Positions 10,018 to 59,272 of a stretch of DNA of 64,000 nucleotides are shown in pieces. The DNA is from Minisyncoccota bacterium (GTDB lineage Bacteria; Patescibacteriota; Minisyncoccia; Phycocordibacterales; PALSA-1337). The position numbers and the translations under genes were made by a program. The notes under the pieces are model-generated. The model made no database searches and was not told where the DNA came from. It was given only the letters and a program-made list of their open reading frames with translations. How positions within the stretch are numbered: the stretch's first letter is position 1; each line of letters opens with the position of its first letter. Location of the stretch: contig JBAYFZ010000001.1 of the NCBI GenBank assembly GCA_041666915.1, forward strand, positions 354,508 through 418,507, read 5' to 3'.

Positions 10018-10023
10018 GGACAT

Positions 10024-10160
10024 GTTGTCATTCCCGCTTTTTATGTCATTCCCGCGAAGGCGGGAATCCAGGATAATACCACAATAAATAGCATGTATTT
10101 AAAAACCATTTAACAAACTTTCCATTCGTAATAATCCTGGATTCCCGCCTTCGCGGGAAT
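10024..10160. repeat. MITE/REP-like palindromic element copy 3, inserted between def and fmt
   Basis: Both inverted termini are present, plus an extra partial left terminus (GTCATTCCCGCTTTTTATGTCATTCCCGCGAAGG). The right terminus abuts or overlaps the annotated fmt start. Confidence 0.8.
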
Positions 10161-11076
10161 GACAAAACAAAAAACTATGCCCACCCCCTTCTCCTTCTTC
10201 GGATCCTCACGTTTCTCGGTAATAGTTCTCGAGCAACTTTTTCGTAAAGGATTGATCCCTTCATACATCATAACAACGGTAGACAAACCAATTGGACGAA
10301 AACAAATCATAACAGCCAACGTGGTCAAACAATGGGCCAATGAAAAAAATATTCCTGTTTATGACCCAGCCAAATTGAATCAGGAATTCGTAGATCAATT
10401 GATTAAATTAAATAAAAATACGGACGGTTCAGAAAAATGTCCAGTTTTCCTAGTCGCTTCTTACGGCAAAATAATTCCAAAGGTAATAATAGACTTACCT
10501 TCAAGAAAAACCCTCAACATCCACCCTTCTCTATTACCAAAATATCGTGGACCTTCCCCATTACCTTCGGCAATGTTGGATGACGATAAAAAGACTGGTG
10601 TGACTATCATGAGAATAGATGAGGAGATGGACCACGGCCCAATCGTAGCAAAGAAAGAAGTTGTGGTAACCGAATGGCCTATTTATGAAAAATACGAAGC
10701 AATGATGGCGGACGAAGGAGCAAAATTATTTGCAGAAATATTACCAAAATGGATAGCGGGAGAAATCAAAGAGCAAGAACAGGATCATTCCATTGCTACA
10801 TATACAAAAAAGATTACAAAAGAAGATGGGTTAATTGACCTCTCCGGTGACGCTTATACCAATTTTAGAAAAATCCAAGCCTACCACGAATGGCCAAAAG
10901 CGTATTTCTTCATGAAGCATACCGCCCGTTCGACCGGCTCAGGGCAAGACAAAGAAATCCGTGTAAAAATAACTGAGGCAAGTTTCAGTGATGGTCAATT
11001 GAAAATTCAGAAAGTAATTCCTGAGGGCGCAAAAGAGATGGCATACGAAGACTTCCTTCGTGGTTACAAAAATTGA
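10159..11076 (+). CDS. fmt: methionyl-tRNA formyltransferase
   Basis: Formyltransferase core with the HPSLLPKYRG motif and a C-terminal Fmt domain. The true start may be an internal Met because the first codons lie inside the repeat. Confidence 0.85.
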   Translation: MTKQKTMPTPFSFFGSSRFSVIVLEQLFRKGLIPSYIITTVDKPIGRKQIITANVVKQWANEKNIPVYDPAKLNQEFVDQLIKLNKNTDGSEKCPVFLVASYGKIIPKVIIDLPSRKTLNIHPSLLPKYRGPSPLPSAMLDDDKKTGVTIMRIDEEMDHGPIVAKKEVVVTEWPIYEKYEAMMADEGAKLFAEILPKWIAGEIKEQEQDHSIATYTKKITKEDGLIDLSGDAYTNFRKIQAYHEWPKAYFFMKHTARSTGSGQDKEIRVKITEASFSDGQLKIQKVIPEGAKEMAYEDFLRGYKN

Positions 11077-12068: not shown

Positions 12069-12388
12069 TCCGGAGTAGCTCAGCGGTAGAGCGATCGCCT
12101 GTAGAGTATGCAGCTTTCTGTCGAAAGGCAGATCGAATAACGAGGTGAATTCGGGGAAACCCCAAACGTAATTGTGGGCAATCCCGAGCCGAGCCCGCCA
12201 AATGGTGGGAAGGTGTAGAGACTATCCAATTTTGGAGTAGCTTGAATTATTTATATAATAATTCTTGCGAAGCCCCTCGTCCCTAAACTGTGGCATTGCC
12301 ACGATATGGGAATGATATAGTCCGTACCATTAGTAATAATGGATTAAACGTAAGCGATTGGTCACAGGTTCGAATCCTGTCTCCGGAG
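12069..12388 (+). tRNA. tRNA-Asn(GUU) interrupted in the anticodon loop (between positions 35 and 36) by a group I intron; mature tRNA 72 nt
   Basis: The 5' exon 12069-12102 is TCCGGAGTAGCTCAGCGGTAGAGCGATCGCCTGT. The 3' exon 12351-12388 is TAAGCGATTGGTCACAGGTTCGAATCCTGTCTCCGGAG. Joined, they give a perfect cloverleaf with acceptor TCCGGAG/CTCCGGA, anticodon stem ATCGC/GCGAT, loop CUGUUAA and discriminator G73. Confidence 0.85.
12103..12350 (+). ncRNA. group I self-splicing intron (248 nt) within tRNA-Asn
   Basis: Core elements are recognisable: P-like AATTGTGGGCAA, Q-like AATCCCGAGC, R-like GTAGAGACTATCC, S-like GATATAGTCC. A P9 hairpin CCATTAGTAATAATGG precedes the terminal omega-G at 12350. 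The 5' exon ends in U, which can pair in P1 (CUGU/GCAG). Confidence 0.75.
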
Positions 12389-13933
12389 CAAAGCTGGATG
12401 AAGGGGCGTAATAACGCCCTTTTGTCCTTTCTGGACAAGGGTTTTCTGTGGTTCGAAAAGCTTTTCTGAGTCAATCTTCTCTTGAACACGTTTAGCAATC
12501 ATCTCCACCGATTTCTCCAATGTATAGCTCACTTTTTCGTTGTTAATGACTAAGTTCGAAAAAATCTTCTTCAGAATCATTCGACGTTCCATTGGATTTC
12601 TTTTTTCATAAATCTCTCGGGACCTTCGAGCTATGTCAATAATATCAATGTATCGTTCGAAATATTTAACCTCATCATTCTTGAGTCTCGCAATTTGTGA
12701 TTGGATTCCTTCCTGTTCAGACATTATCTCCGCTTGTTTTGACTCCCAGCGGTCCCTAGTAATCTTCTCGTCTAAGTGATCATCATAAAGTATGTCCAAT
12801 CGCTTCTGTAGGCTGTTATAGCGTTCCTGAAGAGCTTTTAACATATTCTCCTTGTATTCAGATTCGCCTTTATGATCATCACGGATCTTTTGATATAGTT
12901 GCTCAGCTTCGACAGGTGTAATTGCCTCAAATATTCTAAATACAGACAAGATCGAGTTCTCAATTTCTTCTTCTCGAGTCGAATACCTCTGTGAGCAAGT
13001 CTTGTAGTGCTTACATGAGTAATAAATATGACCTTTCTGGACCTCCCCGTAGATTGTACTGCCACATTCTCCACAATGAATCATCTTAGAGAATATATGC
13101 TGACGCCTCTTATAATGTGGCGCACCGTCCCGGACCAAAGCTGTTTGCACTGAGTCAAACAGTTCCTTAGATATTAACGGTTCCTGTTTTCCACCTCTAT
13201 ACAAGACTCCCTTCCAAATCATATCTCCATAGAAAAAAGGATCTTTTAGTATCTCATGTAAACAGGACTTACCAAGCTGACAACCATTTCTTGCTCGTAA
13301 TCCCTCTGAGTATAGCTTGTCACTTAGGGCCATCAATGAATAATTGCCTGTAGCATAATATTCAAAAGCCTTTTTCATGAACGGTCCCCGGACCTCATCT
13401 ATGACGTGTATTTTGTGACCCTTGTCGCCAATAGTCTTATATCCGAGTGGTGGCGTACATGGGAGCCAACCCTGAGCGATTTTCTCCTTCTGACCTTTCT
13501 TCACCTCTTCTGAGAGATTGTTGGTGTAGAAGCGTGCAATAGCTATCTTCATATCCCAGACCAGATTCTCGTGAGCACGGGTATTCTTGTTAACTACTGA
13601 ATTCTCCTTCACAAAGTGCACTTCACGAGCTTCATCTTCCTGAATCCAGTCATTAACTATCGAAGCATCTTTCAAATTACGTGTTAGACGATCTATTTTC
13701 TCACAGAGGATAATATTCACATCATTCTTAACTGTATATTCCAACATCTCGTTAAACACAAGGCGTATTTGCTTGCCACTGGCTGATTCACTGATCCTAA
13801 AAACTTTTGATATTGTAAGGTTCCTTTTACCTGCATATTCCTTCAAGAGCTTTTCTTGTGCATCAAGAGAGTAACCGGTTTCCTCCTGTTCTCGAGATGA
13901 TACACGTGCATATATGACGCAGTCGGTTTTCAT
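12362..13933 (-). CDS. large serine recombinase (resolvase/invertase catalytic domain + recombinase domain + zinc ribbon)
   Basis: N-terminal VIYARVSSREQ catalytic-serine motif and DRLTRN; central recombinase domain; Cys-rich segment CGECGSTIYG...YYSCKHYKTC. The 3' end of the ORF overlaps the 3' exon of tRNA-Asn. Confidence 0.85.
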   Translation of the reverse strand: MKTDCVIYARVSSREQEETGYSLDAQEKLLKEYAGKRNLTISKVFRISESASGKQIRLVFNEMLEYTVKNDVNIILCEKIDRLTRNLKDASIVNDWIQEDEAREVHFVKENSVVNKNTRAHENLVWDMKIAIARFYTNNLSEEVKKGQKEKIAQGWLPCTPPLGYKTIGDKGHKIHVIDEVRGPFMKKAFEYYATGNYSLMALSDKLYSEGLRARNGCQLGKSCLHEILKDPFFYGDMIWKGVLYRGGKQEPLISKELFDSVQTALVRDGAPHYKRRQHIFSKMIHCGECGSTIYGEVQKGHIYYSCKHYKTCSQRYSTREEEIENSILSVFRIFEAITPVEAEQLYQKIRDDHKGESEYKENMLKALQERYNSLQKRLDILYDDHLDEKITRDRWESKQAEIMSEQEGIQSQIARLKNDEVKYFERYIDIIDIARRSREIYEKRNPMERRMILKKIFSNLVINNEKVSYTLEKSVEMIAKRVQEKIDSEKLFEPQKTLVQKGQKGVITPLHPALLRRQDSNL

Positions 13934-13976
13934 TTGTTTAATTAATTATATATTATCTTAATTTACTAAAAATTTA

Positions 13977-14459
13977 TTAGGCCTTAAATTTATTGTTAAG
14001 ATATTTCTTACCGTAATTAAGAATATCTATATTTGTGTTGTTTATTTGTTTGCTATATGAAGTAGTTTTTGATATAGCACTACCACTGTTCTCGGCTTTT
14101 CTTGAAACAAGATTGGTACTATTCATGAAACTTAAAAGTAAAGCAACTAATTTTTCTTTATTAATATGAAAATGTCTTTTTGCGGGTATACCTTTTAATT
14201 TAACTTCAAGAATTCCTTTATTCTTACATATCCTAATCGCTGTATCTTGTTCATTTCTCGTTAATGCAGTCTCCATGTATAAATCATCCGCAGTTTTATA
14301 TGTCCAATATTTATCTGCTCCCTTACCATCCCAAAAAAGAAGTTGACAAATTAGTATTCCAGCCTTAACACTTCCTAAAGCTCTAGCAATAATAGCATGA
14401 TAGGCTACGATTTTATCACCTAACAAACCATAAATTACCCTCTGGTGTTTATTACTCAT
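13977..14459 (-). CDS. hypothetical winged-helix protein (possible replication/excision-associated DNA-binding protein)
   Basis: 160 aa; an N-terminal YGLLGDKIVAYHAIIARALGSVKAGILICQLLFW helix-rich segment resembles phage replisome-organiser / DnaD-like N-terminal domains; weak. Confidence 0.35.
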   Translation of the reverse strand: MSNKHQRVIYGLLGDKIVAYHAIIARALGSVKAGILICQLLFWDGKGADKYWTYKTADDLYMETALTRNEQDTAIRICKNKGILEVKLKGIPAKRHFHINKEKLVALLLSFMNSTNLVSRKAENSGSAISKTTSYSKQINNTNIDILNYGKKYLNNKFKA

Positions 14460-14480
14460 ACGATTTTATGTTCCGGACCC

Positions 14481-14521
14481 AATACTGATACCTTAATGGT
14501 CGAAACTAAGGTGTCAGTATT
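14481..14521. repeat. imperfect 15-bp inverted repeat with 11-bp spacer (candidate recombinase binding / attachment site)
   Basis: AATACTGATACCTTA-ATGGTCGAAAC-TAAGGTGTCAGTATT, 14/15 arm match, in the AT-rich gap between the recombinase module and tRNA-Arg. Confidence 0.4.
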
Positions 14522-15021
14522 GATCCCGGGGTTTTGTTTATCCTCATAATCAAACTCGGCGAGTAGATTAAATAACGACGCCAATCCGATAACGTCATTT
14601 TCTTGATTATTTAATTTTGAATTATTTTCGACCATTTGTGTATGATGGTGTGAACGATTTACTCACCATTGACGACCATCATACTAAAACAGCCATTTAC
14701 GTTTAAAATAAAAATTAAATATGGCTTAACTAAGCCAATTATACAAAATAATCCAATACACACTTATTCTTACTCCTATAATATTTTATATTCTTTTCCG
14801 TTGATAAGTAGAACAGGTTTTGATACTATAATCACATATAAGAATACTGACGCCAGAAAGGCCCAGCTGGCGCGCGCCTTCATTAGAAGGAAGAGCGAAT
14901 GGAGGAACTGCCGCCCTCCCAGATCTATCTAAAAAACTTCCTTCAATAAAGGAAGTTTTTTAGTTTAAAACCATTACTTTCTGTTCGACCAATTGGGTAC
15001 AAACTTTAATACAACTAGCAG

Positions 15022-15094
15022 TACCCTCGGAAGGACTCGAACCTTCAACCTTGCCGATAGAAGCGACTTGCTCTGTCCATTGAGCTACGAAGGC
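15022..15094 (-). tRNA. tRNA-Arg(UCU)
   Basis: The reverse complement GCCTTCGTAGCTCAATGGACAGAGCAAGTCGCTTCTATCGGCAAGGTTGAAGGTTCGAGTCCTTCCGAGGGTA folds as a 73-nt cloverleaf with anticodon loop CUUCUAU and T-arm GAAGG-TTCGAGT-CCTTC. Confidence 0.8.
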
Positions 15095-15234
15095 ATAACA
15101 CCTAACAAAAAACCGCAAGAAAGCAACAACCAGTTGGGTTGTCAGCTATTGCGGTTTATCTTCTTCTCTTAATGGAATTCACTATGTTTATTATACTAAC
15201 AGATAAGTATCCAATCCTCAAGAAAGATGCGCCC

Positions 15235-15438
15235 TCAGATTAAAGTTAATCTATACCATATTTTTGCTTCAATTTGAGCAACTCTAGTATCGCTAATATT
15301 AAATTTCTTACCCGTAACCTTTTGAGTATGTCTAATCCCGTCAATTACTCCATACCTATACTCAAAGATGGCTGTATGTCTATCATTTAAGTTTAAAAGT
15401 GGTTTATTATTACAATATTTCTGTATCTGCTTTTTCAT
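15235..15438 (-). CDS. small sigma-70 region-4-like HTH protein
   Basis: 67 aa; C-terminal ISDTRVAQIEAKIWYRL resembles sigma-70 region 4.2 (xSxxRVRQIEAKALRKL). Its start overlaps the recombinase stop. Confidence 0.5.
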   Translation of the reverse strand: MKKQIQKYCNNKPLLNLNDRHTAIFEYRYGVIDGIRHTQKVTGKKFNISDTRVAQIEAKIWYRLTLI

Positions 15439-16796
15439 TATATTTTTATATTTTTAACAAAAGGCATAATATTTTCATAAATATTTTCTGGTTTAATAAT
15501 ATACTCAAGATATTGATTGTCATCTGAAAATAAAACAAAATTGCACTGATTAAAAACATTTGTCGGTATAAGGAAAACATCATCTATCAATTCTTTTTTA
15601 CCTAATGTAATACTAACAGCAAAAACTTTATCGTAACTCCTCTTTTCTTCTTCAATGACAAAGATCGTAGACTTCTTACCAGAATTGACTTCATATGAAT
15701 TAACACTATAAGCAAGAGGAAACTTCTTTATTTTAGATTCAGCATCATCTACACTAAAACCCTCTTTCACAAGGAGTTCTCTCATCTCTCTCTCAACAAA
15801 ATTCTGTGCTTTACGTATCATATAAATACCTTTTTTCCATCTCGAAGGTGTGGACCAAAAGAGACGATCTTGAGCCATCCAAAATATTTTCTCATCAATA
15901 ACAGCCGGAAACGCTTTCGGAGCAATGGCCCACTCATTTCGTGGATTTTTTACCTTCTTCTGCTTTAATTTACCTGATGTCTTATTGTAAAGTCTTGTAC
16001 CAGTATAAACTTCATTCCCTAAAATATGACTAACTTTTCCTTTACTCCATACCCCACCATTCGCAGAAGGAATACTCTTCTCATTTAAAATATCGACAAT
16101 ATCACTTGTGGTAAGCCACTTATTTACAAACATATCGAAAATATCTTTCACTACATCTGTAGTCTCGTCATTAAGGGGTGCAAATGTAACGCGTTGATTA
16201 CTAATTTGTTTATGTTCACCTTTTTTAAGTTCACGTATAGGTTTTTTATTCTCATCCAGAAGAAGCCTTACCATACCATAGCAGGCTGTACCACCAGCAG
16301 AATAACCATCTTTTGAAATCTTCATGCAACCGTACCAAACTTTACCACTCAATTGTCGCGAGTATTGTGCGGCCATCCAACGTTCCATTGGCGTAATGAT
16401 ACTATCAGTTATCTCTTGCTCCTCTCTTGGAAATGGCTTACTTGTGTATAGAACTTTCTTACCATGTTGTTCGCAAAGATGTTCGTAATAAGCTGCTTCG
16501 TTTTGGTTTTGGAATCTACCCCAACGAGAAACATCATATACGAGTATGTAATCGAAGTGGGGTGCGTTTGGATTAAGCACCCAATCTTTCATAAGACTTT
16601 GAAAACCTGGACGGTTTGCCGTTAAACCACTTACACCCTCATCAGCAAGATGATCAATAATTTCTCCACCGAATTTTGTAGCAAAACGTGCATGATGATC
16701 TTTTTGGATAGGAACAGAATTTTCTTGTTTATCTTCAGCAGAATGACGGTTATACGTAATTCCTACCCATATTCGTTTTGATTGTAAAAATTGCAT
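15438..16796 (-). CDS. large serine recombinase (second copy, divergent sequence)
   Basis: N-terminal resolvase-like domain (VGITYNRHSAEDKQ, DVSRWGR) and central recombinase domain (GKVWYGC...ERWMAAQYSRQLS). Confidence 0.75.
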   Translation of the reverse strand: MQFLQSKRIWVGITYNRHSAEDKQENSVPIQKDHHARFATKFGGEIIDHLADEGVSGLTANRPGFQSLMKDWVLNPNAPHFDYILVYDVSRWGRFQNQNEAAYYEHLCEQHGKKVLYTSKPFPREEQEITDSIITPMERWMAAQYSRQLSGKVWYGCMKISKDGYSAGGTACYGMVRLLLDENKKPIRELKKGEHKQISNQRVTFAPLNDETTDVVKDIFDMFVNKWLTTSDIVDILNEKSIPSANGGVWSKGKVSHILGNEVYTGTRLYNKTSGKLKQKKVKNPRNEWAIAPKAFPAVIDEKIFWMAQDRLFWSTPSRWKKGIYMIRKAQNFVEREMRELLVKEGFSVDDAESKIKKFPLAYSVNSYEVNSGKKSTIFVIEEEKRSYDKVFAVSITLGKKELIDDVFLIPTNVFNQCNFVLFSDDNQYLEYIIKPENIYENIMPFVKNIKI

Positions 16797-23552: not shown

Positions 23553-24144
23553 TTTAAATCATTTTACAAACACAAAAAGCCCACCACGGGTAGAGGCCGA
23601 AGCCCCTCATATCAGTTTCCCGATATGGCAGATTAAGGCGACCCCATGATGGGTTCTTTGTCCTTAATCTGACTAACTTTTCACCATGCCAGAAATCACT
23701 TATTTCTGGTTTAGGCTACTTATACATATTCAGTTGTATGTTTAGGATACCACTCTATTACGTCCATGCCAATATTCAGCTCTTTAACAATCGTGTAATG
23801 CATGTCTCCCTTCACCACATAATAGTGTATAATAAAGCTATGAAATACGCTTATCTATCCATAATAATTCTTTTAATAATCAGTGGTTTTTATTGGTTTC
23901 AGTTGCGACCAAGCCAAATTAAAAAACATTGTTTTTATACCAGTGCAACATTAAAAGAAAATTTATCGCCTCATGCCGATTTAACTTCTCCAGATAGCTT
24001 TAGTCTCGCCAGCGTAGAAGCACAATCCAATTACCATTCTTGTTTAACCTCGAATGGACTTTAAGGTTGAACTCGAAGAAAAAATGTGATGTAAGTCACT
24101 ATCCACAGTTTTTTTATTTCTATTTGGTTGATATAATGTTGCTC

Positions 24145-24705
24145 AACATTCAATAGTGAATGTTGAAATTGACAACACATGCTCGCTTGCCTGAACAACA
24201 AGCACACAAGAGCGACCGGTTATCCCCGAGATTCCTTAGACGGGTACTCTAGCAGGGACAGTGATGTCCCATGCTAGCGTTCACTAGTAATGGGAACATC
24301 GGATTTATTTTCGAAGTTCTTGTTAAGAGTGCCGGTCTAAGGAATTTTTGCGTATTGTTTCGCCTCATCTGTACATCACGAATTGATGTGCGGATTCTGG
24401 CGGAATTAATACCGCAGAAGCAGAGTGTCGATAGCTCTTATCTGGCAGAAACGCCAGGAAGTTTGATTTTGCAATACCATGCAGAAAACAAACAAAAGTC
24501 AGATCTGCTTTCCGTCAAAAGACGGTCTCAAGTTGATCTGCAACGCCGTTGATAGGTACGGTGACGGACAGTTGTGGGAAACCATCTCTGGACGTTGGAT
24601 TCCTATCGATATAGAAAATGCACCGGCTTTTACCAGTGCATTTTCAAGAAAATCCTGACGTGGTTTTTCTTACACAACCGCTCCCGCAAGGGAGCTTTTG
24701 TGTTT
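24145..24705 (+). ncRNA. candidate structured ncRNA / non-coding transcription unit of unknown class
   Basis: Extended -10 promoter TGATATAAT at 24129-24137. The region has elevated GC and many hairpins (e.g. CAACATTC-AATAG-GAATGTTG; GAAAATGCACCGG...CCAGTGCATTTTC). Terminator GCTCCCGCAAGGGAGCTTTTGTGTTT at 24680-24705. The only ORF (24271-24552) has no RBS and low-complexity content. Confidence 0.4.
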
Positions 24706-25437: not shown

Positions 25438-27318
25438 CTAATCGTTCTTACTCTTAGATGTAACCCAACTTTCTTCAAGATCAACGGTACCACTATTTGG
25501 TCGTCTCGATTTCTCAAGAAGCTCAATATCGACTTTAACCGGTATATCCGAAGCTAATCCAGCAACAAAACAACTTCCCACAGAAAGAATTGGAATGCTT
25601 TGAAATGACAATTTATCAAGATAAGCGACAGCTTTTTCTACTGCGCTTATATCATTATCATTTATAAGTCTATGAATAAAATAGTTATGTAGCTGAGAAA
25701 TTATTGTGGCTGATATATCATAAGGCCTTTGGCTTGCAATAGTTAGAAAGACACCAAATTTTCTTCCCTCCTTTATAATTTCTTCAAAAGTCTCTAGACG
25801 ATAATCCTTCCATGTCTCACTTTCTCGCTGAGACATTGTGGAGAGAATATTATGAGCCTCATCTATAATTATATGTAGCGATTTTTTGTCAGACTCCTTT
25901 TTGTTTTCGTACAACTGTTTCGCAATTATTAGCGGAACAATCTTCTTCATCTCAATATTTACATCTCTTAAAGAAATGACGGATAGATTCTTTGATTCGG
26001 GGCTATCTTTAATATCAATCAGTTTCTCCAACATATCAAACTTTCTGAACATTCTGCCCACTAATGGTCCAATATGTTCTTGGTTTGAATATCCCTTTAC
26101 GATTTCATGAAAATAATTAAAAACGATTTTCAATTTCAGCTTACTAAATTCGTCAGCCTTAAAGACCAGTGCATCCACAGATGTTTTAAGTCGAGTGTCG
26201 TATATAGGGTTTTTATTGTTGTAATTATTGCCATCATTTGATGCGTCCCAGTAATACTCCTTTGTAAGGGAGTGATAGTGTAGTTTATTTTCAATATCTT
26301 TTTTAAGTGCAATTACATCATCCTTCTTCTCATCTGTAACAAGATTTATCAGGTCTCTAAAAAGCTCGATGATTACCCCTTCTCTAAGGTTTCCATCCTT
26401 CTTATCAATAACACCAGTACACAGATCTTCGATACTTGTAATAGCTCGAGTATTAAAAGTCGTATTATCATCAAGATAATCATTACGTATAACTCTATCG
26501 AGAAAGGGCTTTTGTGTTTTTTCTGTTGCCTCCAGTAAAACAGACAGGATTTCTGTCTTGTGAATACTTTCTCTAGGAAGCGGGTATTTTTTCTTACTGC
26601 CTTTTTTACCAGTTGATAGCTCATAGACCACTTTGTCTTTCGTAATCATTTCATCACCAGTATATTCACCATTGAAATCAATTATCACAAAATCTGATTT
26701 GGTTTTGAAATCACCTTGATCTGAGAATGTTTTAAAAAGCTCAGTGTATATTTTCGCAAGTGTATTTGATTTACCGCTTCCGGTGTTGCCGAAAATACCA
26801 ATATGGCTGGCAAACAATTTATTAACACCTAGCTTTATCTTTTGTGACGGCTCTTCTGTTAGACTGCCGACCGCAATAGTTTTGTCACCCTTTTTGTAAA
26901 ACTGGTGAAGTACATTAAATTCATCTCTATTTAGCAAATAGCACTCATTATCGATCAAGGGCATTTCTTTTATACCCTGCTTTACACAATTACCTTCAAA
27001 ATGACCAAAGAGAGACAATTGCAAAACCCTATTTATCCTAGTCTCTTCTTTGTTGTATTCTTTATTAAAAAACTTTTCTTCAGAGGTAAATTCGCCCTCA
27101 ACTTTTCCAATAATACTCACGAAACCCTTTACTATCTTTACATAGCTACCTACAGACACATTTTTTACAGTTTTTCCTTCGAATAAAATATGCGAATGAT
27201 TTTTATTTTTATTTAGTTTTACCCTAACAATTCTACCGTCAACTGAGAGAACGCGGCCAATTATAAAAATCGACTCTTGCATCAATTCTTGCTCAATTGT
27301 TTTACTCTTTGTCTCCAT
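25438..27318 (-). CDS. herA: HerA-like (DUF87) ATPase, partner of SIR2 in the SIR2-HerA antiphage system
   Basis: N-terminal HAS-barrel-like segment, Walker A GNTGSGKSN, Walker B HIIIDEAHN, and the GRKFGVFLTIASQRP motif typical of HerA/FtsK-like ATPases. Confidence 0.8.
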   Translation of the reverse strand: METKSKTIEQELMQESIFIIGRVLSVDGRIVRVKLNKNKNHSHILFEGKTVKNVSVGSYVKIVKGFVSIIGKVEGEFTSEEKFFNKEYNKEETRINRVLQLSLFGHFEGNCVKQGIKEMPLIDNECYLLNRDEFNVLHQFYKKGDKTIAVGSLTEEPSQKIKLGVNKLFASHIGIFGNTGSGKSNTLAKIYTELFKTFSDQGDFKTKSDFVIIDFNGEYTGDEMITKDKVVYELSTGKKGSKKKYPLPRESIHKTEILSVLLEATEKTQKPFLDRVIRNDYLDDNTTFNTRAITSIEDLCTGVIDKKDGNLREGVIIELFRDLINLVTDEKKDDVIALKKDIENKLHYHSLTKEYYWDASNDGNNYNNKNPIYDTRLKTSVDALVFKADEFSKLKLKIVFNYFHEIVKGYSNQEHIGPLVGRMFRKFDMLEKLIDIKDSPESKNLSVISLRDVNIEMKKIVPLIIAKQLYENKKESDKKSLHIIIDEAHNILSTMSQRESETWKDYRLETFEEIIKEGRKFGVFLTIASQRPYDISATIISQLHNYFIHRLINDNDISAVEKAVAYLDKLSFQSIPILSVGSCFVAGLASDIPVKVDIELLEKSRRPNSGTVDLEESWVTSKSKND

Positions 27319-28321
27319 GATTCATGCTATTTAAGACTTCACTGAGGACCGACTGATTGATTTTTTCTAGGTTAAATCTACTTGCTGGCTCATCATCTGA
27401 GGGTTCAATGATTTCAATATTTGAATACCTCAATTTTCCAAGTTGCATTTTTGTCTTCATACTTGAATCCGTATCCTTTCCGTGGCAAAACACATAAATT
27501 TTTAGTGTAGGATTCGATTCTGCTGCTCTTATCGTTATTTCTCGAATATGTTCATCTTCCATAGAGAATCCTAGAACAAAAAGAACGGTATTTTCTTTTT
27601 CCAGTTCACCTGAATACATTCTGAGCAATTCGTAGTAAGTTACATCGATTACCGTTTCTTCAAGTTTTTTCCTTTCTGGATTTACTATTGCTAATCTTTC
27701 ATAACCAGCCTCAAAAGCTCGTTGTCCCTTTTTTAACAAAGATTTATCGAAATGTTCTAGCTTTGAAAAATGAATTTTATTTTCAACCTTTTCCCATGTC
27801 AAAGATCCGTGGACTTTCATAAGATTAAACAAAGGTATTTCTGAAACATTCTCATAGTGCAAACTTCTTTTTTGTATTGATTTTTTAAAATTACTCAGGC
27901 TAAAAGTAGCATTTAATCGACCATTGAAACCATCGTTATATTCAAGACTACTATCTTCCAAAACAGTTTCCATCAGTATATCTATGTTTGTAGTAAATAT
28001 GTTAACTTGCTTACTGAGAATTGTATTCTTGCGCTTCAAAAGTATACGTGCAAGCATTTCAAAAAAATCCTTATACGCCTTACATGTTGTATCAAAATCG
28101 CCTTTTTTAGCTATTGATTTACTAATAATTTCAAGATTAGGAATTATTACTCTCTCAAAATACTCCTTCTTTATCTTTACCCGCTCAGATTTCTTTTTTT
28201 CGCTAGATAAACGAGTCTCAATATCACCAAGTATTGGCAAAAACGGTGTTGAAAGACCAGCCCCAACTAGGACATTTATGTGCGAGCTCTGTATGGCCTC
28301 TTTTATTTCTTGAGGTTTCAT
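27302..28321 (-). CDS. SIR2-family (DHS-like NAD-binding) protein, SIR2-HerA antiphage system
   Basis: VLVGAGLS (GAGxS), IFTTNIDIL (TTNYD-like) and MKVHGS (HGS) motifs; overlaps the herA start by 17 nt. Confidence 0.8.
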   Translation of the reverse strand: MKPQEIKEAIQSSHINVLVGAGLSTPFLPILGDIETRLSSEKKKSERVKIKKEYFERVIIPNLEIISKSIAKKGDFDTTCKAYKDFFEMLARILLKRKNTILSKQVNIFTTNIDILMETVLEDSSLEYNDGFNGRLNATFSLSNFKKSIQKRSLHYENVSEIPLFNLMKVHGSLTWEKVENKIHFSKLEHFDKSLLKKGQRAFEAGYERLAIVNPERKKLEETVIDVTYYELLRMYSGELEKENTVLFVLGFSMEDEHIREITIRAAESNPTLKIYVFCHGKDTDSSMKTKMQLGKLRYSNIEIIEPSDDEPASRFNLEKINQSVLSEVLNSMNHGDKE

Positions 28322-29248: not shown

Positions 29249-29635
29249 ATGTTAGAAGGTCTAGAAGACACAATCACAGAGACCAACTTGTCAGCCGAGA
29301 GCAATGATATTTTTGAATTTAAAGATGAAGATGGTGATAAAAGTATCGGAGTTATCGTCGGAGAATATATCGTATTCGCAACAGAACAAATCGACGGAAA
29401 GTGGACTGTAAATTTTGCTTTAAAGGATGAATTAAAAGGTAGTTCATGGATGGATACTCTTACAAACAAAGGAGCGTTTTCTACGATAATTGAGCTTAAG
29501 CCAGCTTTTGAAAAAATAATTAATCAATTGGAAAAAGAGGGTAAAGATTGGTTTTGTGCTTGTGACGAAAGAAGAGCAAAGCTCTATGCCAGATACATCC
29601 CTAAAGAAAAAATTCAGATTGTCGATAAAACTTGA
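29249..29635 (+). CDS. hypothetical protein
   Basis: 128-aa ORF. Confidence 0.35.
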   Translation: MLEGLEDTITETNLSAESNDIFEFKDEDGDKSIGVIVGEYIVFATEQIDGKWTVNFALKDELKGSSWMDTLTNKGAFSTIIELKPAFEKIINQLEKEGKDWFCACDERRAKLYARYIPKEKIQIVDKT

Positions 29636-29743
29636 TTTAAACAAAATAATTCCTTGTCCACTTTTTGCCAGTTAACAATTCTGAACTCGTCCAACAGTTC
29701 TATTCATACTTGACAAACTCTACGGATATGATAAGATACCATA

Positions 29744-30096
29744 GTCGACGATAAGTGAGCTGGTTGTCGATACGGCCGAAAGGCAATGTAAATTAGCTCT
29801 CGGGGTTTGTATCCGTCAACGGGAGATACCCCTAAACGAACAGTTGATTTGGTACATCAAAAAAGTCGGCACTTGAGCATAAGCTCAGCCCATCATCGGC
29901 GCAAGCTCGTTAGTTATCTGATCCTGCGAGTAGCACCGGCAGAGGGCACTTTGCCGACACAAAAGAAAGAGTGGCACGATGTGCATGTCTAGCTTGCACG
30001 CCACAGGTTTGGTGGTACTTAGTCTCCACCCGATGAAGTACGCGACTTCATGAGTCAATTCGCCCGGAACCACCACTTTGGTTCCGGGCTTTTTTA
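29744..30096 (+). ncRNA. candidate structured ncRNA of unknown class
   Basis: Promoter TTGACA-16-TAAGAT at 29710-29737. A ~350-nt GC-rich ORF-free region ends in the terminator GCCCGGAACCACCACTTTGGTTCCGGGCTTTTTT. The small ORFs inside (29807-29992 and 29885-30076) look spurious. Confidence 0.4.
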
Positions 30097-30100
30097 TTTC

Positions 30101-30190
30101 CTCATGTCCTTCATAAACAACGACTGATTGTAAATTCCCTACATGTATTCCCTATCTGAGAATATGGTTATAATAATCTCATGTTCGGGG
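30101..30190. repeat. ~90-bp repeat R copy 1 (CTCATxxCTTTCATAAACAA...GTATTCCCTATCTGAGAATRTGGTTATRATAATCTCA)
   Basis: ~85% identical to copies at 32141-32230 and 34367-34455; each follows a rho-independent terminator. Confidence 0.75.
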
Positions 30191-30201
30191 ATGGCATACA
30201 A

Positions 30202-30897
30202 TTATTTTTCGTTATCGTGCATTACTTTCAATAAAAAGATGGTATCAGTCTTTAACTTTGCACGAGCAGAATCCTTCTGTGAATCAGTGATCAATTCACC
30301 AAGCCCATCTAAAATATGTTTATTATCCATTGACTCCAACATGGCAATACATTTCTCTAATGCTTCCTTATATGGAACTCCCGATCTTTCTTCCACAATC
30401 TTGCGGTTAATAGGCCAGTTATTTTTAGCAAAATACTGAACATCAAAAATATCACGACTTGTCTTACCGATTCGCTCAAACATTGCCATCAACTTATGTG
30501 CAAACATGTCTTCTTGGACCATTACGAGCATTGAGATGCCGAGATATGTTTTCATTTCATACTTTGAGCCAAGTTGGCGACGATTCACCTCAACCTTAAT
30601 TTTCTGAGCATTAGTATCATAAGAGATAACATTCTTTAAATTGAATCTCTGCATGTATGAATCAGTAATTTTGCCGTAATTACTTACAATCTTGTTTATT
30701 TTCTCAAAAACGTCCTTTTCTTTTGTCTCATCCAACAAATCAAGATCCAAATCTACAGAGTTTCTGGGCAAATCATAAAACATCATAGCTGCGGTACCAC
30801 CTTTGAATCCCAAATAAGGTGCAATAGAGGTATCAGAATAGATATCTTTTAAGATCTGTAACAAGATATTCTTATGTTTTGAGTAATCTAATGTCAT
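30202..30897 (-). CDS. abiEii: AbiEii/AbiGii-family nucleotidyltransferase toxin (type IV TA / abortive infection)
   Basis: LGFKGGTAAMMFYDLPRNSVDLDLDL matches the DUF1814/AbiEii signature. Confidence 0.75.
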   Translation of the reverse strand: MTLDYSKHKNILLQILKDIYSDTSIAPYLGFKGGTAAMMFYDLPRNSVDLDLDLLDETKEKDVFEKINKIVSNYGKITDSYMQRFNLKNVISYDTNAQKIKVEVNRRQLGSKYEMKTYLGISMLVMVQEDMFAHKLMAMFERIGKTSRDIFDVQYFAKNNWPINRKIVEERSGVPYKEALEKCIAMLESMDNKHILDGLGELITDSQKDSARAKLKTDTIFLLKVMHDNEK

Positions 30898-31478
30898 ATA
30901 ATTTTTTGATATTCTTTTACCTTCTTTTCTAAACGCTTGTTGTTATAAATTGGTAATATTTCCATCACCTTATTCCAATCCAATGAACGCAAATTATCAA
31001 AGTGATAATCTTTGCTTACATATACACGGTCTAAAAAGGCACGTTCACGTGATGCGGTGGCAATACCACTTGTATGTTCTATTCCCATTGAATTACTCAA
31101 AACGTAATCTTTCATCCGAACGAAAGTAATTTTTTGATCACCAATTGTAATTTCTCGATTCATGTATGATGCAACGAAAATATTTCCGTAATATTGGAAA
31201 TTTACCCCTTCACGAGTCAAAATGGTTTCAAAGCTAATATATGATGGGGTGTAGATACGAGTTGCTAATTCGAAACGATTGTAATTTTTATCTTTAGCAT
31301 AAAATCCTCTGTGAACTCTGATCAACTTTTCCGCTTTTACATAATAGTTCAAACGGACCCTAGCCGCTGATTCATTTTGTTCCCCCCACATCAAAACCAC
31401 ATCCTTTGTTGAAAAGATGGTCTGGGGTGATCTTAATAAGATCTCCAAAAATTCGCCTTTTGTGGGTTTATTATCCAT
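30894..31478 (-). CDS. abiEi: AbiEi-family antitoxin / transcriptional regulator
   Basis: KLIRVHRGFYA motif typical of AbiEi N-terminal domains; stop overlaps the abiEii start by 4 nt. Confidence 0.65.
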   Translation of the reverse strand: MDNKPTKGEFLEILLRSPQTIFSTKDVVLMWGEQNESAARVRLNYYVKAEKLIRVHRGFYAKDKNYNRFELATRIYTPSYISFETILTREGVNFQYYGNIFVASYMNREITIGDQKITFVRMKDYVLSNSMGIEHTSGIATASRERAFLDRVYVSKDYHFDNLRSLDWNKVMEILPIYNNKRLEKKVKEYQKII

Positions 31479-31595
31479 ATTGTTGCTGGAAGTTAGTTTT
31501 AACCTAACATCCAGTCACAATATTAGCATATTCTAAGAAAATCAACAATATGTGCACTAGATTAGTACTTCAGGCTAGAATTCAATAGATATATA

Positions 31596-31624: not shown

Positions 31625-31662
31625 CTACACGGAACAACAGAAACATTAACAAAAGGAACTTT

Positions 31663-32085
31663 GTGAAAACAATATTAGTCGGTATTTTCTTCATGAGCCA
31701 ATTGATTTTGGCTTTGGGACAAAATGATCCCACCGTACGGTATCCGGCCATCAACAATAATGTGTTCACGAATATGATTTCGTGGAACGCTCTTATGACC
31801 GACACTTATGCGTGGCCGATCATAGCAACCGAGGTCGTCGTCGATCAGCCAATACCTTCGAAGGTGTCATTGGAAATCTTCAAGATCCAGAATGACCCGG
31901 ATTACGGCAACGGCACCCTGGTAACCTCTACCAAGACGAACGAGGTGTGTCTAGTCCAGTCATCGGTTGACCTGAAAAACTGGACAATGGAGACGAATTC
32001 TCCGCTTGTCATAGCAGGCTATACCGCCTACTATTTCTATCCGGAAGATGGAGCGAAAGTAAAATTTTACCGGACACGCAATTGA
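31663..32085 (+). CDS. secreted hypothetical protein
   Basis: Signal peptide MKTILVGIFFMSQLILALG; 140 aa; followed by a terminator and R copy 2. Confidence 0.5.
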   Translation: MKTILVGIFFMSQLILALGQNDPTVRYPAINNNVFTNMISWNALMTDTYAWPIIATEVVVDQPIPSKVSLEIFKIQNDPDYGNGTLVTSTKTNEVCLVQSSVDLKNWTMETNSPLVIAGYTAYYFYPEDGAKVKFYRTRN

Positions 32086-32140
32086 GCGTAACCCGCCCGA
32101 ACAGAGAAACCCTCCGTTCACGGCGGGTTTTCTTTTTATA

Positions 32141-32230
32141 TTCTCATCACTTTCATAAACAACAACCGATTGTGCATCCCCTACATGTATTCCCTATCTG
32201 AGAATGTGGTTATGATAATCTCATGTTCAG
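32141..32230. repeat. ~90-bp repeat R copy 2
   Basis: See copy 1. It is preceded by the hairpin CCCGCCCGAACAGAGAAACCCTCCGTTCACGGCGGG+T-tract, itself reused at 38338. Confidence 0.75.
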
Positions 32231-32248
32231 GAAGCATAAGATTGTAAT

Positions 32249-34311: not shown

Positions 34312-34366
34312 ATCCCCCGCCCGAACACGAAGCCCATCGCTTCAGTTCGCGGCGGGTTTCTTTTTT

Positions 34367-34455
34367 CTTCTCATCGCTTTCATAAACAATAACTGATTGT
34401 ACATCCTCTATATGTATTCCCTGTCTGAGAATGTGGTTATGATAATCTCAGGTTC
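34367..34455. repeat. ~90-bp repeat R copy 3
   Basis: See copy 1. Confidence 0.75.
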
Positions 34456-34630
34456 GGAAAGTGTTGCACTTCAGAGTGGAATTTTAGGAGCCAAGTTGAC
34501 AACATTGATTAAAAGATGTAATTTAAGTCTAAATTGCTCTAACAAAATTAAAACGAAGGTAAATTATGAAATCAGGAAGAAACGTCGCACTTGCGAACAA
34601 TGATAGATTTTTTCTCTTCATCGTATTCAA

Positions 34631-34984: not shown

Positions 34985-35140
34985 GACTTCTGCGCGATTG
35001 ACCCTCCAGTAAAATGGAGGGTTTTTCTTTTACCCAAAACATACCTCATCCAAAAGTTCTAAAAATGTCCTACCAGACCCTGAATTGTCACTCTAATCGC
35101 AATCCTTGACAAACAACAACCAACATGCTATACTACCCTA

Positions 35141-35566
35141 GTCCTTCAAAGACGGACATCTAGTACAAAAACCCGCCGTGAAGATTATCATTATTGACAC
35201 GGCATAACGGCAAAAGAAAGGAGAATTGCTCCTCCAAACTGGAAAATTCGAAAAGCTAAGTAGTCTTAAAGGTAACAGCGATATTCTGCCCTTATTATGC
35301 GAATTGCGCATGTGCAACTAGCATCATATTAAGGGTAAGAAATAACTGTTACTGGCGGAACAAAAAGCGAGTACGAATGGACTGGGCGATCCACTTGAGA
35401 ATTTCTCTTTGGATCATAGGGGGGTTCGTCACATGACGTGAAAAAATGCGCTGACCGACAAGGTCACCTGGAGACAACCAGAGAAACCGTGTGGAAGGAA
35501 AACCACCGCAGTGTAACGCCACAAAAATTTCCATAGCTCGTCTTCAGGTGAAGACGAGTTTTTTTA
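35141..35566 (+). ncRNA. candidate ~425-nt ncRNA of unknown class
   Basis: Strong promoter TTGACA-17-TATACT (35106-35134) and terminator CTCGTCTTCAGGTGAAGACGAGTTTTTTT (35537-35566). No credible ORF between them; moderate GC with many hairpins. Confidence 0.45.
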
Positions 35567-35627
35567 TACCTGAAATAGGGTTAAACTCACGATAAAAATT
35601 TCTCATTAATATGTTAAAATTATAGCA

Positions 35628-43204: not shown

Positions 43205-43307
43205 AAGTTACGTTAGGCGGGACAAGGCAACATCATTAATGTAATGTTGCTTTTTTGTTACCGTGATTCGCTCCACCAGTCGGTAGATGGCGAATTCTCA
43301 GTTTTAA

Positions 43308-43340
43308 TACCCCCTCCCCCCTAGGGGGTATCAAGACTAA
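43308..43340. repeat. CCCCCTCCCCCCTAGGGGGTATCAAGA palindromic repeat (copy A)
   Basis: G/C-run palindrome centred on CTAG; related copies at 47483-47500, 47800-47872 and 53288-53420, all at 3' ends of minus-strand genes. Confidence 0.7.
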
Positions 43341-43741
43341 AGAGATACAGTAAACTCAACTTCAAAAGGATACATACCCATTCCACATGTTCCTGAAAGC
43401 TTACCAACCTTACCCACACCAATATCAATATCAGTAGAACCAGTCTGTGGTAACGCTTTAGAAATATTCATACTTGGAATACGTACGTAAGATGAACAAT
43501 CAAAAGTCCCGTTAGTATTGAACCTAATAACAGTAGGAATGCCTGCCTTTGCAATACTTTTCCTAGGCTGATAACCACCTCTAGCGGTTATTTCAATAAT
43601 CTGTTTTCCATCAATAACAGAAACATTATTTGCATTAGTTGCAACTTGTCCTGAAGTAACCGTATTACCACCTCTCACCAATAACAAAGCTCCTGCAATG
43701 AGGGTAACTGCGACTATAATAGATAAAATGGTTGCTTTCAT
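43337..43741 (-). CDS. secreted cupredoxin-like/metal-binding protein (putative copper-handling accessory)
   Basis: TM/signal anchor, Cys/Met-rich C-terminus (CSSY...GTCGMGMYPF); adjacent to the copper-efflux genes. Confidence 0.4.
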   Translation of the reverse strand: MKATILSIIVAVTLIAGALLLVRGGNTVTSGQVATNANNVSVIDGKQIIEITARGGYQPRKSIAKAGIPTVIRFNTNGTFDCSSYVRIPSMNISKALPQTGSTDIDIGVGKVGKLSGTCGMGMYPFEVEFTVSL

Positions 43742-47469: not shown

Positions 47470-47799
47470 AATGAATACATGGTATACCCCCTAGGGGTAT
47501 CTTGTCAATATTACTAACTGGTGTTATTGATGTCATTGTAAAATTATGCATCACAAAAATCGCAAAACACTATTAAGAAGGTTTTTTACTCAGTAAGAGG
47601 GCACTTTCGCGGGAAGATTACACAATTTATCTCCGTCCGACAGATAGGTCACAACGGACAGGGTTTCCTGCGTATTAAAGATACTAAAAAAGTGACGGAT
47701 TTTTCGTCACTTTTTTATAGTTATATTACAGTTGAAAGGAACTAACCAATAAAAATACTTTTACTTCGCCACCCGCTCAATTAGATAAACACGAACACA

Positions 47800-47872
47800 A
47801 TACCCCCTCCCCCCTAGGGGGTATCAAGACCAAAGAAATGTAATGCACCCCCTCCCCCAGGGGGAGGGGGTC
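47800..47872. repeat. CCCCCTAGGGGG-family palindromic repeat (copy C, compound)
   Basis: ATACCCCCTCCCCCCTAGGGGGTATCAAGACCAAAGAAATG...CCCCCTCCCCCAGGGGGAGGGGG. Confidence 0.7.
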
Positions 47873-53420: not shown

Positions 53421-53452
53421 ATAAAATGTCATGTGAATCTACCAACCCGTCT

Positions 53453-54886: not shown

Positions 54887-54890
54887 ACTA

Positions 54891-59221: not shown

Positions 59222-59272
59222 AATTTATCGCCAGTATTCATGGATTCCCGCCTTCGCGGGAATGACACAAAA
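59176..59272. repeat. MITE/REP-like palindromic element copy 5
   Basis: Intact termini; the core CCAGGATGTAACCAATAAAATTTATCGCCAGTATTCATGGATTCC is nearly identical to copy 6. Confidence 0.85.

What the first reader, a model, noticed from the sequence alone, without database searches (positions are those of the whole stretch)
29710..30096. Second ORF-free GC-rich unit (~350 nt) with promoter and strong terminator, upstream of R copy 1
GC content is clearly elevated relative to neighbours. A TTGACA-16-TAAGAT promoter, a 10-bp-stem terminator and several internal hairpins are present. AAAGUCGGC (centre) and CGACUU (3' part) could form a long-range pairing. The class is unknown; it is not obviously RNase P, tmRNA, SRP or 6S.
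Basis: seen in the sequence. Interest (0 to 1): 0.5.

Follow-up and report, generated by a model that had tools for sequence, protein, structure and literature searches.

The report
Orphan non-coding transcription unit, CPR island
A roughly 350-base stretch with its own promoter and terminator but no gene for a protein sits in a mobile island of an uncultured ultra-small (CPR) bacterium. It is probably a non-coding RNA of unknown class, but no relative was found, so its function cannot yet be tested by comparison.

Summary
The sequence features are real. There is a TTGACA-16-TAAGAT promoter with a TG-extended -10 box (29710-29737), about 314 nt of GC-rich DNA with no credible ORF, and an 11-bp terminator with a T-run (30062-30095). 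R copy 1 follows directly.

Rfam 15 and ARAGORN find no known RNA class. The 61-codon TTG frame has no relative among 1.84 billion protein representatives.

Evidence for RNA structure is modest. The fold z-score is -5.2 with the terminator but -2.4 without it. An equally GC-rich coding cassette nearby also scores -5.2. The proposed AAAGUCGGC/CGACUU pairing is not in the predicted folds.

The host is a Paceibacterota (CPR) MAG. The unit lies in an island with serine recombinases, SIR2-HerA and AbiE. The only other copies found are 100% identical, so covariation cannot be tested.

Only the promoter and two short 5' blocks recur, including GCCGAAAGGCAATG. They recur beside homologues of the upstream 128-aa gene, where they lead small ORFs.

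Best reading: a stand-alone non-coding RNA cassette built on a shared promoter and leader module (confidence about 0.4). Main rival: an ORF-less remnant of such a cassette. Interest is modest.

The parts
29710..29737 (+). Sigma-70-type promoter TTGACA-16-TAAGAT with a TG-extended -10 box. The inferred transcription start is near 29744.
   Evidence: The same promoter type precedes three other + strand units in the island. There is local similarity to the promoter after the P0002 gene in L006.
29753..29799 (+). 5' module: AAGTGAGC (29753-29760), ACGG, then the GNRA hairpin GCCGAAAGGC. It is closed by GAGCTGGTT (29757-29765) pairing with AATTAGCTC (29791-29799).
   Evidence: Folds. The pattern AGTGAGC-N3-25-CCGAAAGG occurs once in the window against 0 expected, and it occurs in all close P-family loci. 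A covariance model of the L006-type leader does not match this stretch.
29775..29788 (+). Conserved 14-nt block GCCGAAAGGCAATG.
   Evidence: The same block, or its 10-13-nt core, lies beside P-family genes in L006 (twice), L014, L058 (twice) and L059. It is absent from the AbiEii-homologue loci L041-L057 (about 96 kb, by my tally) and from 704 kb of phage loci.
29802..29832 (+). Hairpin GGGGU...ACCCC with an inner CCG-UCAA-CGG stem-loop.
   Evidence: MFE and centroid folds.
29844..29860 (+). Hairpin TTGAT-TTGGTAC-ATCAA, followed by an A6 linker.
29865..29958 (+). Central branched domain closed by GUCGGCA/UGCCGAC. It contains the UGAGC-AUAA-GCUCA hairpin and a long irregular arm.
   Evidence: The domain is the same in the MFE and centroid folds. 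Local 120-nt windows give z of -2.8 to -3.0.
29971..30004 (+). Hairpin GUGGC...GCCAC with an inner GUGCA/UGCAC stem.
30011..30030 (+). Weak hairpin GGUGG/CCACC. UGGUGGU (30010-30016) is also complementary to ACCACCA (30069-30075) in the terminator, giving a 7-bp alternative pairing.
   Evidence: Read directly from the sequence. This alternative is much weaker than the 11-bp terminator stem.
30033..30051 (+). Hairpin AUGAAGU-ACGCG-ACUUCAU.
30062..30095 (+). Intrinsic terminator with an 11-bp stem (8 G-C pairs), a 6-nt loop and a T6 run. It has no U-run for the minus strand, so it acts in one direction only.
   Evidence: sequence.

Best explanation
The unit is a stand-alone non-coding RNA gene of about 350 nt (29744-30095, + strand). 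It is carried as an accessory cassette in an integrative island of a Candidatus Paceibacterota (CPR) bacterium.

Shown:
- A near-consensus extended -10 promoter and a strong one-way intrinsic terminator bracket a GC-rich stretch with no detectable coding capacity.
- The promoter and two short 5' sequence blocks are shared with cassettes next to homologues of the upstream 128-aa gene in other CPR elements. There the same blocks lie in the leader or the 3' untranslated region of small ORFs.

Inferred:
- The cassette is transcribed on its own, and possibly also as the 3' end of the upstream gene's transcript, since that gene has no terminator of its own.
- The product works as an RNA through its folded body: a branched central domain at 29865-29958 flanked by A-rich linkers and several hairpins. 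Binding or titrating a protein seems more likely than antisense pairing.
- The terminator also stops transcription from running antisense into the convergent abiEii/abiEi operon.
For: - Promoter and terminator are present and correctly oriented.
- The + strand folds better than the - strand, z -5.2 against -3.1.
- The central domain is identical in the MFE and centroid folds, and it is one of the few non-terminator stretches in 27-36 kb with local z below -2.5.
- Coding evidence is absent. The longest frame is 61 codons, starts with TTG and has no Shine-Dalgarno sequence. Stops of all three kinds occur in every + frame. No gene was called here on the identical metagenome contigs L001, L002 and L003. 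That frame has 0 hits among 1.84 billion protein representatives. Pfam and PHROGs find nothing in any frame. There is no protein-level similarity to the small ORF that follows the same leader in L014.
- The perfect -35 box, the TG -10 box and the perfect 11-bp terminator are all intact while no trace of an ORF remains. That pattern does not fit neutral decay of a former mRNA cassette (inference).
- A sibling ORF-free unit with the same architecture lies at 35106-35570, and a bona fide LOOT RNA lies at 23592-23717. So this island does carry RNA genes.
Against: - There is no homologue of the roughly 260-nt body, so there is no covariation or conservation evidence. The only other copies are identical.
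- nhmmer finds nothing in about 1 Mb of related and control loci. blastn finds nothing in the phage or plasmid collections.
- The structure signal is modest: z is -2.4 without the terminator, the hairpin count is ordinary, and a coding cassette scores the same as the whole unit.
- GC richness is a property of cassette cargo in general here.
- No outstanding antisense target was found in the window. The best duplex is no better than with shuffled RNA, though this was a crude test.
- Transcription is untested.
Confidence: 0.4

Rival explanations
1. The unit is an ORF-less remnant of an expression cassette. The promoter, 5' blocks and terminator come from a module that normally drives a small accessory ORF. 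Here the ORF was lost or replaced by recombination, leaving a transcribed but functionless spacer.
For: - In the sister loci L006 and L014 the shared 5' blocks precede real, protein-level conserved ORFs of about 70 aa and a 127-aa gene.
- Cargo ORFs there and in the window (31663-32085) are as GC-rich as this unit and fold as well.
- The body is an orphan with no relatives found.
- The short blocks appear in shuffled order between loci, which suggests frequent recombination.
Against: - No residual open frame or frameshifted protein similarity is visible.
- The expression signals are perfect, although neutral decay should have damaged them too.
- A second ORF-free unit of the same design lies in the same island.
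Confidence: 0.3
2. The unit is a cis-acting untranslated region. It could be the long 3' UTR of the upstream 128-aa gene (29249-29635). Alternatively it could be a leader or attenuator whose terminator is conditionally bypassed, sending transcription through R1 and antisense into abiEii.
For: - No terminator-like site lies between the stop codon at 29635 and 30062.
- UGGUGGU (30010-30016) can pair either with CCACC (a local hairpin) or with ACCACCA in the 5' arm and loop of the terminator. This is an attenuator-like three-way choice.
- The GCCGAAAGGCAATG block lies in 3' untranslated regions in L058 and L059.
Against: - The alternative pairing is only 7 bp against an 11-bp, 8 G-C terminator stem.
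- No same-strand gene follows. The next genes are convergent.
- No riboswitch or T-box model matches at E<=10.
- The unit has its own strong promoter.
Confidence: 0.12
3. The unit encodes a small basic protein of 61 aa, with a TTG start at 29807 and a stop at 29992.
For: - It is the longest frame on the transcribed strand.
- ORFs behind the same leader blocks in L006 and L014 also lack a Shine-Dalgarno sequence.
Against: - It starts with TTG inside a predicted stem.
- Gene callers did not call it on the three identical contigs.
- It has 0 relatives in an exhaustive HMMER search of 1.84 billion representatives.
- It has no Pfam or PHROGs match.
- An open frame of this length is expected by chance at 50% GC (inference).
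Confidence: 0.05
4. The unit is a DNA-level element, such as a packaging, replication or recombination site used by the island, rather than an RNA.
For: - A small-terminase-like HTH protein is encoded 600 nt upstream.
- The short blocks (GCCGAAAGGCAATG and GTGAGnCTGGT) recur in permuted order near P-family genes, as recombination or binding sites might.
- R repeats follow directly.
Against: - A promoter and terminator exactly bracket the segment.
- There are no iterons or tandem repeats.
- All seven copies of the 14-nt block have the same orientation as the local transcripts.
Confidence: 0.05

Closest known systems
Orphan GC-rich intergenic ncRNA candidates in AT-rich genomes (the kind found by GC-content/IGR-length screens, e.g. 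Weinberg et al. 2017, PMC5737381)
   Same: An ORF-free, GC-rich island in an AT-rich background. It has its own promoter and intrinsic terminator, multiple GC-rich hairpins and A-rich linkers.
   Different: Those candidates are accepted on covariation across many homologues. Here there is one sequence and no covariation. The local coding cargo is equally GC-rich, so the composition signal is not specific.
LOOT RNA (RF03000), present in the same island at 23592-23717
   Same: A non-coding RNA carried by the same CPR island, which shows that such elements do carry RNA genes.
   Different: There is no sequence or model similarity. LOOT scores 78.6 bits at its own locus and gives no match at all in 29600-30200. 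The lengths also differ: 121 nt against about 350 nt.
Leader of the small-ORF cassettes next to P0002/P0003 genes in CPR contigs L006 and L014 (undescribed; defined here)
   Same: It has the same position, just after a TTGACA/TG-TATAAT promoter beside a P-family gene. It shares AAGTGAGC, ACGG/TCGG and GCCGAAAGGCA.
   Different: The 45-nt hairpin 1 is missing here, as is the GGAAAG/CUUUCC closing helix. The spacing is 11 nt instead of 5 nt. A covariance model of that leader does not hit the window unit. No ORF follows here.
Bacterial RNase P RNA
   Same: Similar size, and an A-rich run followed by AAGUCGG that could pair with a 3' CGACUU, resembling the P4 helix.
   Different: No RNase P model matches at E<=10. 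The other conserved regions and a P1 helix joining the two ends are absent. Both P4-like strands are engaged in stronger local helices. The unit sits in a mobile island and shares a promoter and leader with mRNA cassettes.

Membership tests
Any Rfam 15 family (RNase P, tmRNA, SRP, 6S, T-box, riboswitches, OLE/ROOL/GOLLD/HEARO/raiA, ribozymes, group I/II introns) | A covariance-model match at or near the family's gathering score. | tested here: not met
   There is no gathering-level hit in 29600-30200. At E<=10 the only hits on the unit's strand (20-22 bits) are terminator-hairpin look-alikes against cut-offs of 39-50 bits; the rest are noise on the other strand or in R1.
tmRNA / tRNA-like | A tRNA-like domain and tag reading frame detectable by ARAGORN. 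| tested here: not met
   ARAGORN finds only tRNA-Arg at 15021-15094.
Bacterial RNase P RNA | A P4 long-range helix with conserved flanking sequences, a P1 helix joining the 5' and 3' ends, and the conserved regions of the specificity domain. | tested here: not met
   A 6-bp AAGUCG/CGACUU pairing is possible, but it is not in the MFE or centroid fold. No 5'/3' closing helix is predicted. There is no RNase P covariance-model hit.
T-box or other terminator-controlling leader | A regulated gene on the same strand after the terminator. | tested here: not met
   R1 and the convergent abiEii/abiEi operon follow. The only + strand ORF there (30143-30439) overlaps abiEii in antisense.
T-box or other terminator-controlling leader | An antiterminator able to compete with the terminator. 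| tested here: inconclusive
   A 7-bp UGGUGGU/ACCACCA alternative exists, but it is much weaker than the 11-bp stem.
L006-type cassette leader (hairpin 1 plus GGAAAG...CUUUCC domain) | Shared sequence blocks in the same position after the promoter. | tested here: met
   AGTGAGC-N3-25-CCGAAAGG occurs once in the window against 0 expected, and in every close P-family locus.
L006-type cassette leader (hairpin 1 plus GGAAAG...CUUUCC domain) | The conserved secondary structure: hairpin 1 with compensatory changes, and the domain-2 closing helix. | tested here: not met
   Hairpin 1 shows 7 compensatory pairs among 3 sequences in sister loci, but it is absent here. Covariance model R1 of domain 2 gives no hit at 29753-29799 at E<=10.
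Type III toxin-antitoxin RNA / CRISPR-like repeat RNA | Tandem direct repeats in the RNA. | tested here: not met
   No tandem repeats were found.
Retron or DRT-type ncRNA | An adjacent reverse-transcriptase gene. | tested here: not met
   Pfam on all ORFs of at least 100 aa within about 12 kb upstream and downstream shows HerA, SIR2, a Terminase_2-like protein, AbiEii/AbiEi and TPR, but no RT.
Small protein gene | A conserved open reading frame with homologues. | tested here: not met
   The 61-aa frame has 0 hits in 1.84 billion representatives and no Pfam or PHROGs match.
Structured ncRNA in general | Covariation supporting the helices across homologues. | not testable with these tools
   Only identical copies were retrieved.

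The most novel reading that the evidence does not exclude
The unit and its sibling at 35106-35570 are founding members of an undescribed class of structured RNAs. In this reading, CPR integrative elements carry them as cargo, express them from the same promoter and leader module as small accessory proteins, and place them among defence genes (SIR2-HerA, AbiE). They would act, for example, as protein-titrating or anti-defence/decoy RNAs.
Probability: 0.15. Interest if true: 0.6.

Novelty: new member of a known kind. Interest (0 to 1): 0.3.

Why it matters
If the RNA is functional, it would be one of very few non-coding RNAs known from CPR/Patescibacteria mobile elements. It would also show that these islands exchange RNA-only cargo using the same expression module as protein cargo.

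As it stands it is a single-sequence candidate. Its value is as a lead for metatranscriptome mapping and for a proper nucleotide search of CPR genomes.

The more solid by-product is the short conserved block GCCGAAAGGCAATG and the associated leader hairpin, which flank a small family of unknown proteins in several CPR elements.

Tried and rejected
- **Rfam.** I ran gathering thresholds on the whole window and E<=10 on 29600-30200. Only terminator look-alikes appeared.
- **Nucleotide homologues of the RNA.**
  - blastn against the phage and plasmid collections found nothing.
  - nhmmer against the window found no paralogue.
  - nhmmer against all fetched loci also found nothing. These loci are the P-family loci, 17 AbiEii loci and 80 phage loci, together about 1 Mb.
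  - Exact 22-mer and R-core scans of IMG/VR found nothing.
- **Synteny through the upstream protein.** P0001 has 14 relatives. The loci of P0002, P0003, P0124, P0125, P0128 and P0129 share only the promoter and short blocks, never the RNA body.
- **Synteny through AbiEii.** The protein is 83-93% identical across CPR lineages but sits in unrelated contexts, with no RNA and no R repeat nearby.
- **Leader-pattern scans of the metagenome and genome collections.** Apart from the L006 contig, the hits checked lie in coding regions and the rest sit in unrelated, mostly GC-rich genomes. The total (26) is about what chance predicts for this pattern (my estimate). An initial impression that some were structured RNAs was dropped after translating them and after a negative Rfam search.
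- **Coding tests.** I tried alternative stop-codon readings, Pfam and PHROGs on all frames, tblastn with the L014 small ORF (the L006 query was mis-framed) and an exhaustive search with the 61-aa frame. All were negative.
- **Structure of the P-family protein.** The AlphaFold2 model has pLDDT 69, and Foldseek against the PDB gave no match at E<=0.001. It gives no functional hint.
- **Antisense target scan.** I scanned 113 start regions in the window. The best duplex was no better than with shuffled RNA.
- **Covariance model of the sister-locus leader.** It gave no hit on the window unit.

Full report
**What is in the sequence**

Positions 29710-29737 carry TTGACA, a 16-nt spacer and TAAGAT, with TG just before the -10 box. 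Transcription would start near 29744. GC content rises to 0.45-0.52 between 29700 and 30100, against 0.33-0.36 on both sides.

The stretch ends in an 11-bp stem with 8 G-C pairs and a 6-nt loop, followed by TTTTTT (30062-30095). No U-run follows the hairpin on the minus strand, so the terminator works for the + strand only.

The longest open frames are 61 codons on the + strand (TTG start, 29807-29992) and 63 codons on the - strand. All three kinds of stop codon occur in every + frame, so a recoded genetic code does not rescue an ORF. R copy 1 begins at the T-run (30092-30192).

**How far this exceeds chance**

A 10/12 promoter match is not rare in this AT-rich window. There are 29 such matches, against 42 +/- 7 in composition-preserving shuffles. 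What matters is the subtype. A perfect TTGACA combined with a TG-extended -10 box occurs on the + strand at 29710, 31596, 35106 and 37717, each in front of a discrete unit in the island. The promoter region also resembles the one that follows the homologous upstream gene in another contig.

The structure evidence is weaker than it first appears:

| Test | Result |
|---|---|
| Whole unit, + strand | z = -5.2 |
| Whole unit, - strand | z = -3.1 |
| Unit without the terminator | z = -2.4 |
| Coding GC-rich cassette 31640-32135 (control) | z = -5.2 |
| Perfect hairpins in the unit | 4; matched or exceeded in 30% of same-sized windows |

In a scan of 120-nt windows over 27-36 kb, most stretches with z below -2.5 are terminators. 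The central part of the unit (29800-29959, z of -2.8 to -3.0) is one of the few exceptions. That part forms a branched domain closed by GUCGGCA (29865-29871) and UGCCGAC (29952-29958). It is the same in the MFE and centroid structures.

It is not predicted.

**Known classes**

Rfam 15 gives no family at gathering thresholds. At E<=10 the only matches on the unit's strand are hits of 20-22 bits that align to the terminator hairpin. ARAGORN finds nothing here. There are no tandem repeats. No reverse transcriptase or other RNA-partner gene lies nearby. RNase P, tmRNA, SRP, 6S, T-box, riboswitches, the large ornate RNAs, ribozymes and introns are therefore not supported.

**Context**

A source annotation of the upstream protein names the organism as a Candidatus Paceibacterota (CPR) MAG. 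The window from about 12 kb to at least 35 kb looks like an integrated island. It holds:

- two large serine recombinases flanking tRNA-Arg;
- a ParB-like protein;
- a LOOT RNA at 23592-23717;
- a HerA-SIR2 pair and a small-terminase-like protein;
- the 128-aa gene of unknown function at 29249-29635, and then this unit;
- R1, followed by the convergent abiEii/abiEi operon;
- a promoter-ORF-terminator cassette followed by R2, and further cassettes followed by R3.

A second ORF-free promoter-terminator unit lies at 35106-35570. Its largest ORF is 34 aa, its fold z without the terminator is -3.2, and it has no Rfam hit.

**Comparative evidence**

The upstream protein is encoded on three other metagenome contigs. 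All are 100% identical to the window over 7-12 kb, so they add nothing.

Its relatives were followed into their contigs: P0002 (75% identity), P0003 (66%), P0124 (63%) and P0125 (58%). None has the RNA body. What recurs is a short set of blocks:

- In L006 the gene is followed by a TTGACA / TG-TATAAT promoter and a 45-nt hairpin.
- Next comes GGAAAGUGAGC-N5-ACGG-N4-GCCGAAAGGCA...CUUUCC, and then a small ORF of about 70 aa.
- The same leader precedes a 127-aa gene 1.1 kb further on.
- L014 has the same leader before a homologous 69-aa ORF.
- Among these three leaders the hairpin keeps 7 pairs through compensatory changes.

The window unit has AAGUGAGC-N11-ACGG-CCGAAAGGCA at its very 5' end. This pattern is expected 0 times by chance in the window.

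In L058 and L059 the 14-nt block GCCGAAAGGCAAUG lies in untranslated stretches just upstream of the P-family gene. In L058 a GUGAGACUGGUCG block follows it rather than preceding it. The core CCGAAAGGCA is absent from the AbiEii-homologue loci L041-L057 (about 96 kb, by my tally), and the 11-nt form is absent from 704 kb of phage DNA. All seven copies point the same way as the local transcripts.

A covariance model of the L006-type leader does not detect the window's 5' region. The hairpin and the closing helix are missing, and a different helix (GAGCUGGUU/AAUUAGCUC) closes the module. The window unit therefore shares a promoter and leader module by descent or recombination. It is not a structural member of that leader, and its 260-nt body is unique among everything I could search.

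**Coding and pseudogene tests**

- The 61-aa frame has no relative in an exhaustive HMMER search of 1.84 billion representatives.
- No frame fragment matches Pfam or PHROGs.
- The L014 small ORF shows no similarity to any frame beyond what shuffles give; the L006 query was mis-framed, so that ORF was not tested.
- Stop-codon density looks random in all frames.

**Interpretation**

Intact, near-ideal expression signals around a body with no trace of an ORF fit a non-coding RNA gene better than a decaying mRNA cassette. Neutral decay should not spare the promoter and terminator.

The lack of any homologue, the modest fold statistics and the equal GC richness of coding cargo keep the remnant reading alive. 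I put about 0.4 on a functional stand-alone RNA, 0.3 on an ORF-less remnant, 0.12 on a cis-acting UTR or attenuator, and 0.05 each on a small protein and a DNA-level site.

No antisense target stands out in the window. If the RNA acts in trans, a structure-based role such as protein binding is more likely than base pairing. This step is inference only.

**Limits**

They returned mainly chance or coding matches, plus the already known L006 contig. The RNA body has therefore not been searched against metagenomes or CPR genomes at large. "Orphan" here means orphan within the phage, plasmid, IMG/VR exact-word and fetched-locus searches only. Transcription was not testable.

**Verdict**

This is a real, well-delimited, ORF-free transcription unit of unknown class in a CPR mobile island. 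It is a reasonable but unproven ncRNA candidate. Interest is modest until homologues or transcripts are found.

Noticed in passing
window 23592-23717 (-): A LOOT RNA (Rfam RF03000) matches at 78.6 bits against a cut-off of 46.4 and at full model length. It lies inside the same island, between two genes of unknown function.
   Followed up: partly
window 30092-30192, 32134-32234, 34361-34461: R is a repeat of about 100 nt with three copies 85-88% identical. Each copy starts at the T-run of a + strand terminator. It contains ATTCCCTA-N5-ATTCCCTA and a TGGTTAT(A/G)AT box that resembles an extended -10 element. R1 and R2 end 10-15 nt from the stop codons of convergent genes (abiEii and a TPR protein). 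No relative was found in any fetched locus or in IMG/VR.
   Followed up: partly
window 35106-35570 (+): A sibling ORF-free unit. It has a TTGACA-17-TATACT promoter with TG, about 400 nt whose largest ORF is 34 aa, and a terminator near 35537-35565. Its fold z without the terminator is -3.2, and it has no Rfam match.
   Followed up: partly
window 29775-29788; L006 5574 and 6685; L014 77; L058 2978 and 3083; L059 673: The 14-nt block GCCGAAAGGCAATG (core CCGAAAGGCA) lies within about 350 nt of every close homologue of the 128-aa gene; L006 has an extra copy 1.3 kb downstream. It always points the same way as that gene and is absent from control DNA. L058 and L059 also share CCTCGTGT. It could be an RNA hairpin or a protein-binding site.
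   Followed up: partly
L006 5492-5622 and 6603-6744; L014 1-123: An undescribed 5' leader lies in front of small ORFs that lack a Shine-Dalgarno sequence. It has a 45-nt hairpin with 7 compensatory pairs among 3 sequences, then a GGAAAG...CUUUCC-closed domain with a GNRA hairpin. The ORF of about 70 aa in L006 (around 5622-5838) was not called by the gene caller.
   Followed up: partly
window 30202-31478 (-): The AbiEii toxin here is 83-93% identical to more than 100 proteins from many CPR lineages (Nomurabacteria, Taylorbacteria, Kaiserbacteria and others). Those proteins sit in unrelated chromosomal contexts, which suggests recent wide horizontal spread of this AbiE module.
   Followed up: partly
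window 25438-28321 (-): Adjacent, overlapping genes encode a HerA-like ATPase (DUF87) and a SIR2-like protein. This arrangement is that of a SIR2-HerA anti-phage system.
   Followed up: no
window 12362-16796: Two large serine recombinase genes (12362-13933 and 15438-16796) flank tRNA-Arg(TCT) at 15021-15094. This is probably one end of the island.
   Followed up: no
window 361-500, 1646-1806, 10021-10177, 54774-54900, 59157-59287, 60138-60268: A palindromic repeat, GTCATTCCCGCGAAGGCGGGAATCC, occurs in at least 12 copies in both orientations, often as facing pairs. It lies in the chromosomal part outside the island and looks like a REP- or MITE-like element.
   Followed up: no
window 43306-43346, 47799-47839, 53390-53430: A second repeat family, AATACCCCCTCCCCCCTAGGGGGTATCAAG, has three copies, one of them inverted.
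   Followed up: no
window 24120-24700 (+): A promoter-like site is followed by a GC-rich leader of about 300 nt, then a 59-aa ORF (about 24479-24658) and a terminator.
   Followed up: no
window 31440-31559: This is the most strongly folding 120-nt stretch in 27-36 kb (z = -4.7). It lies between the abiEi start and the promoter at 31596.
   Followed up: no
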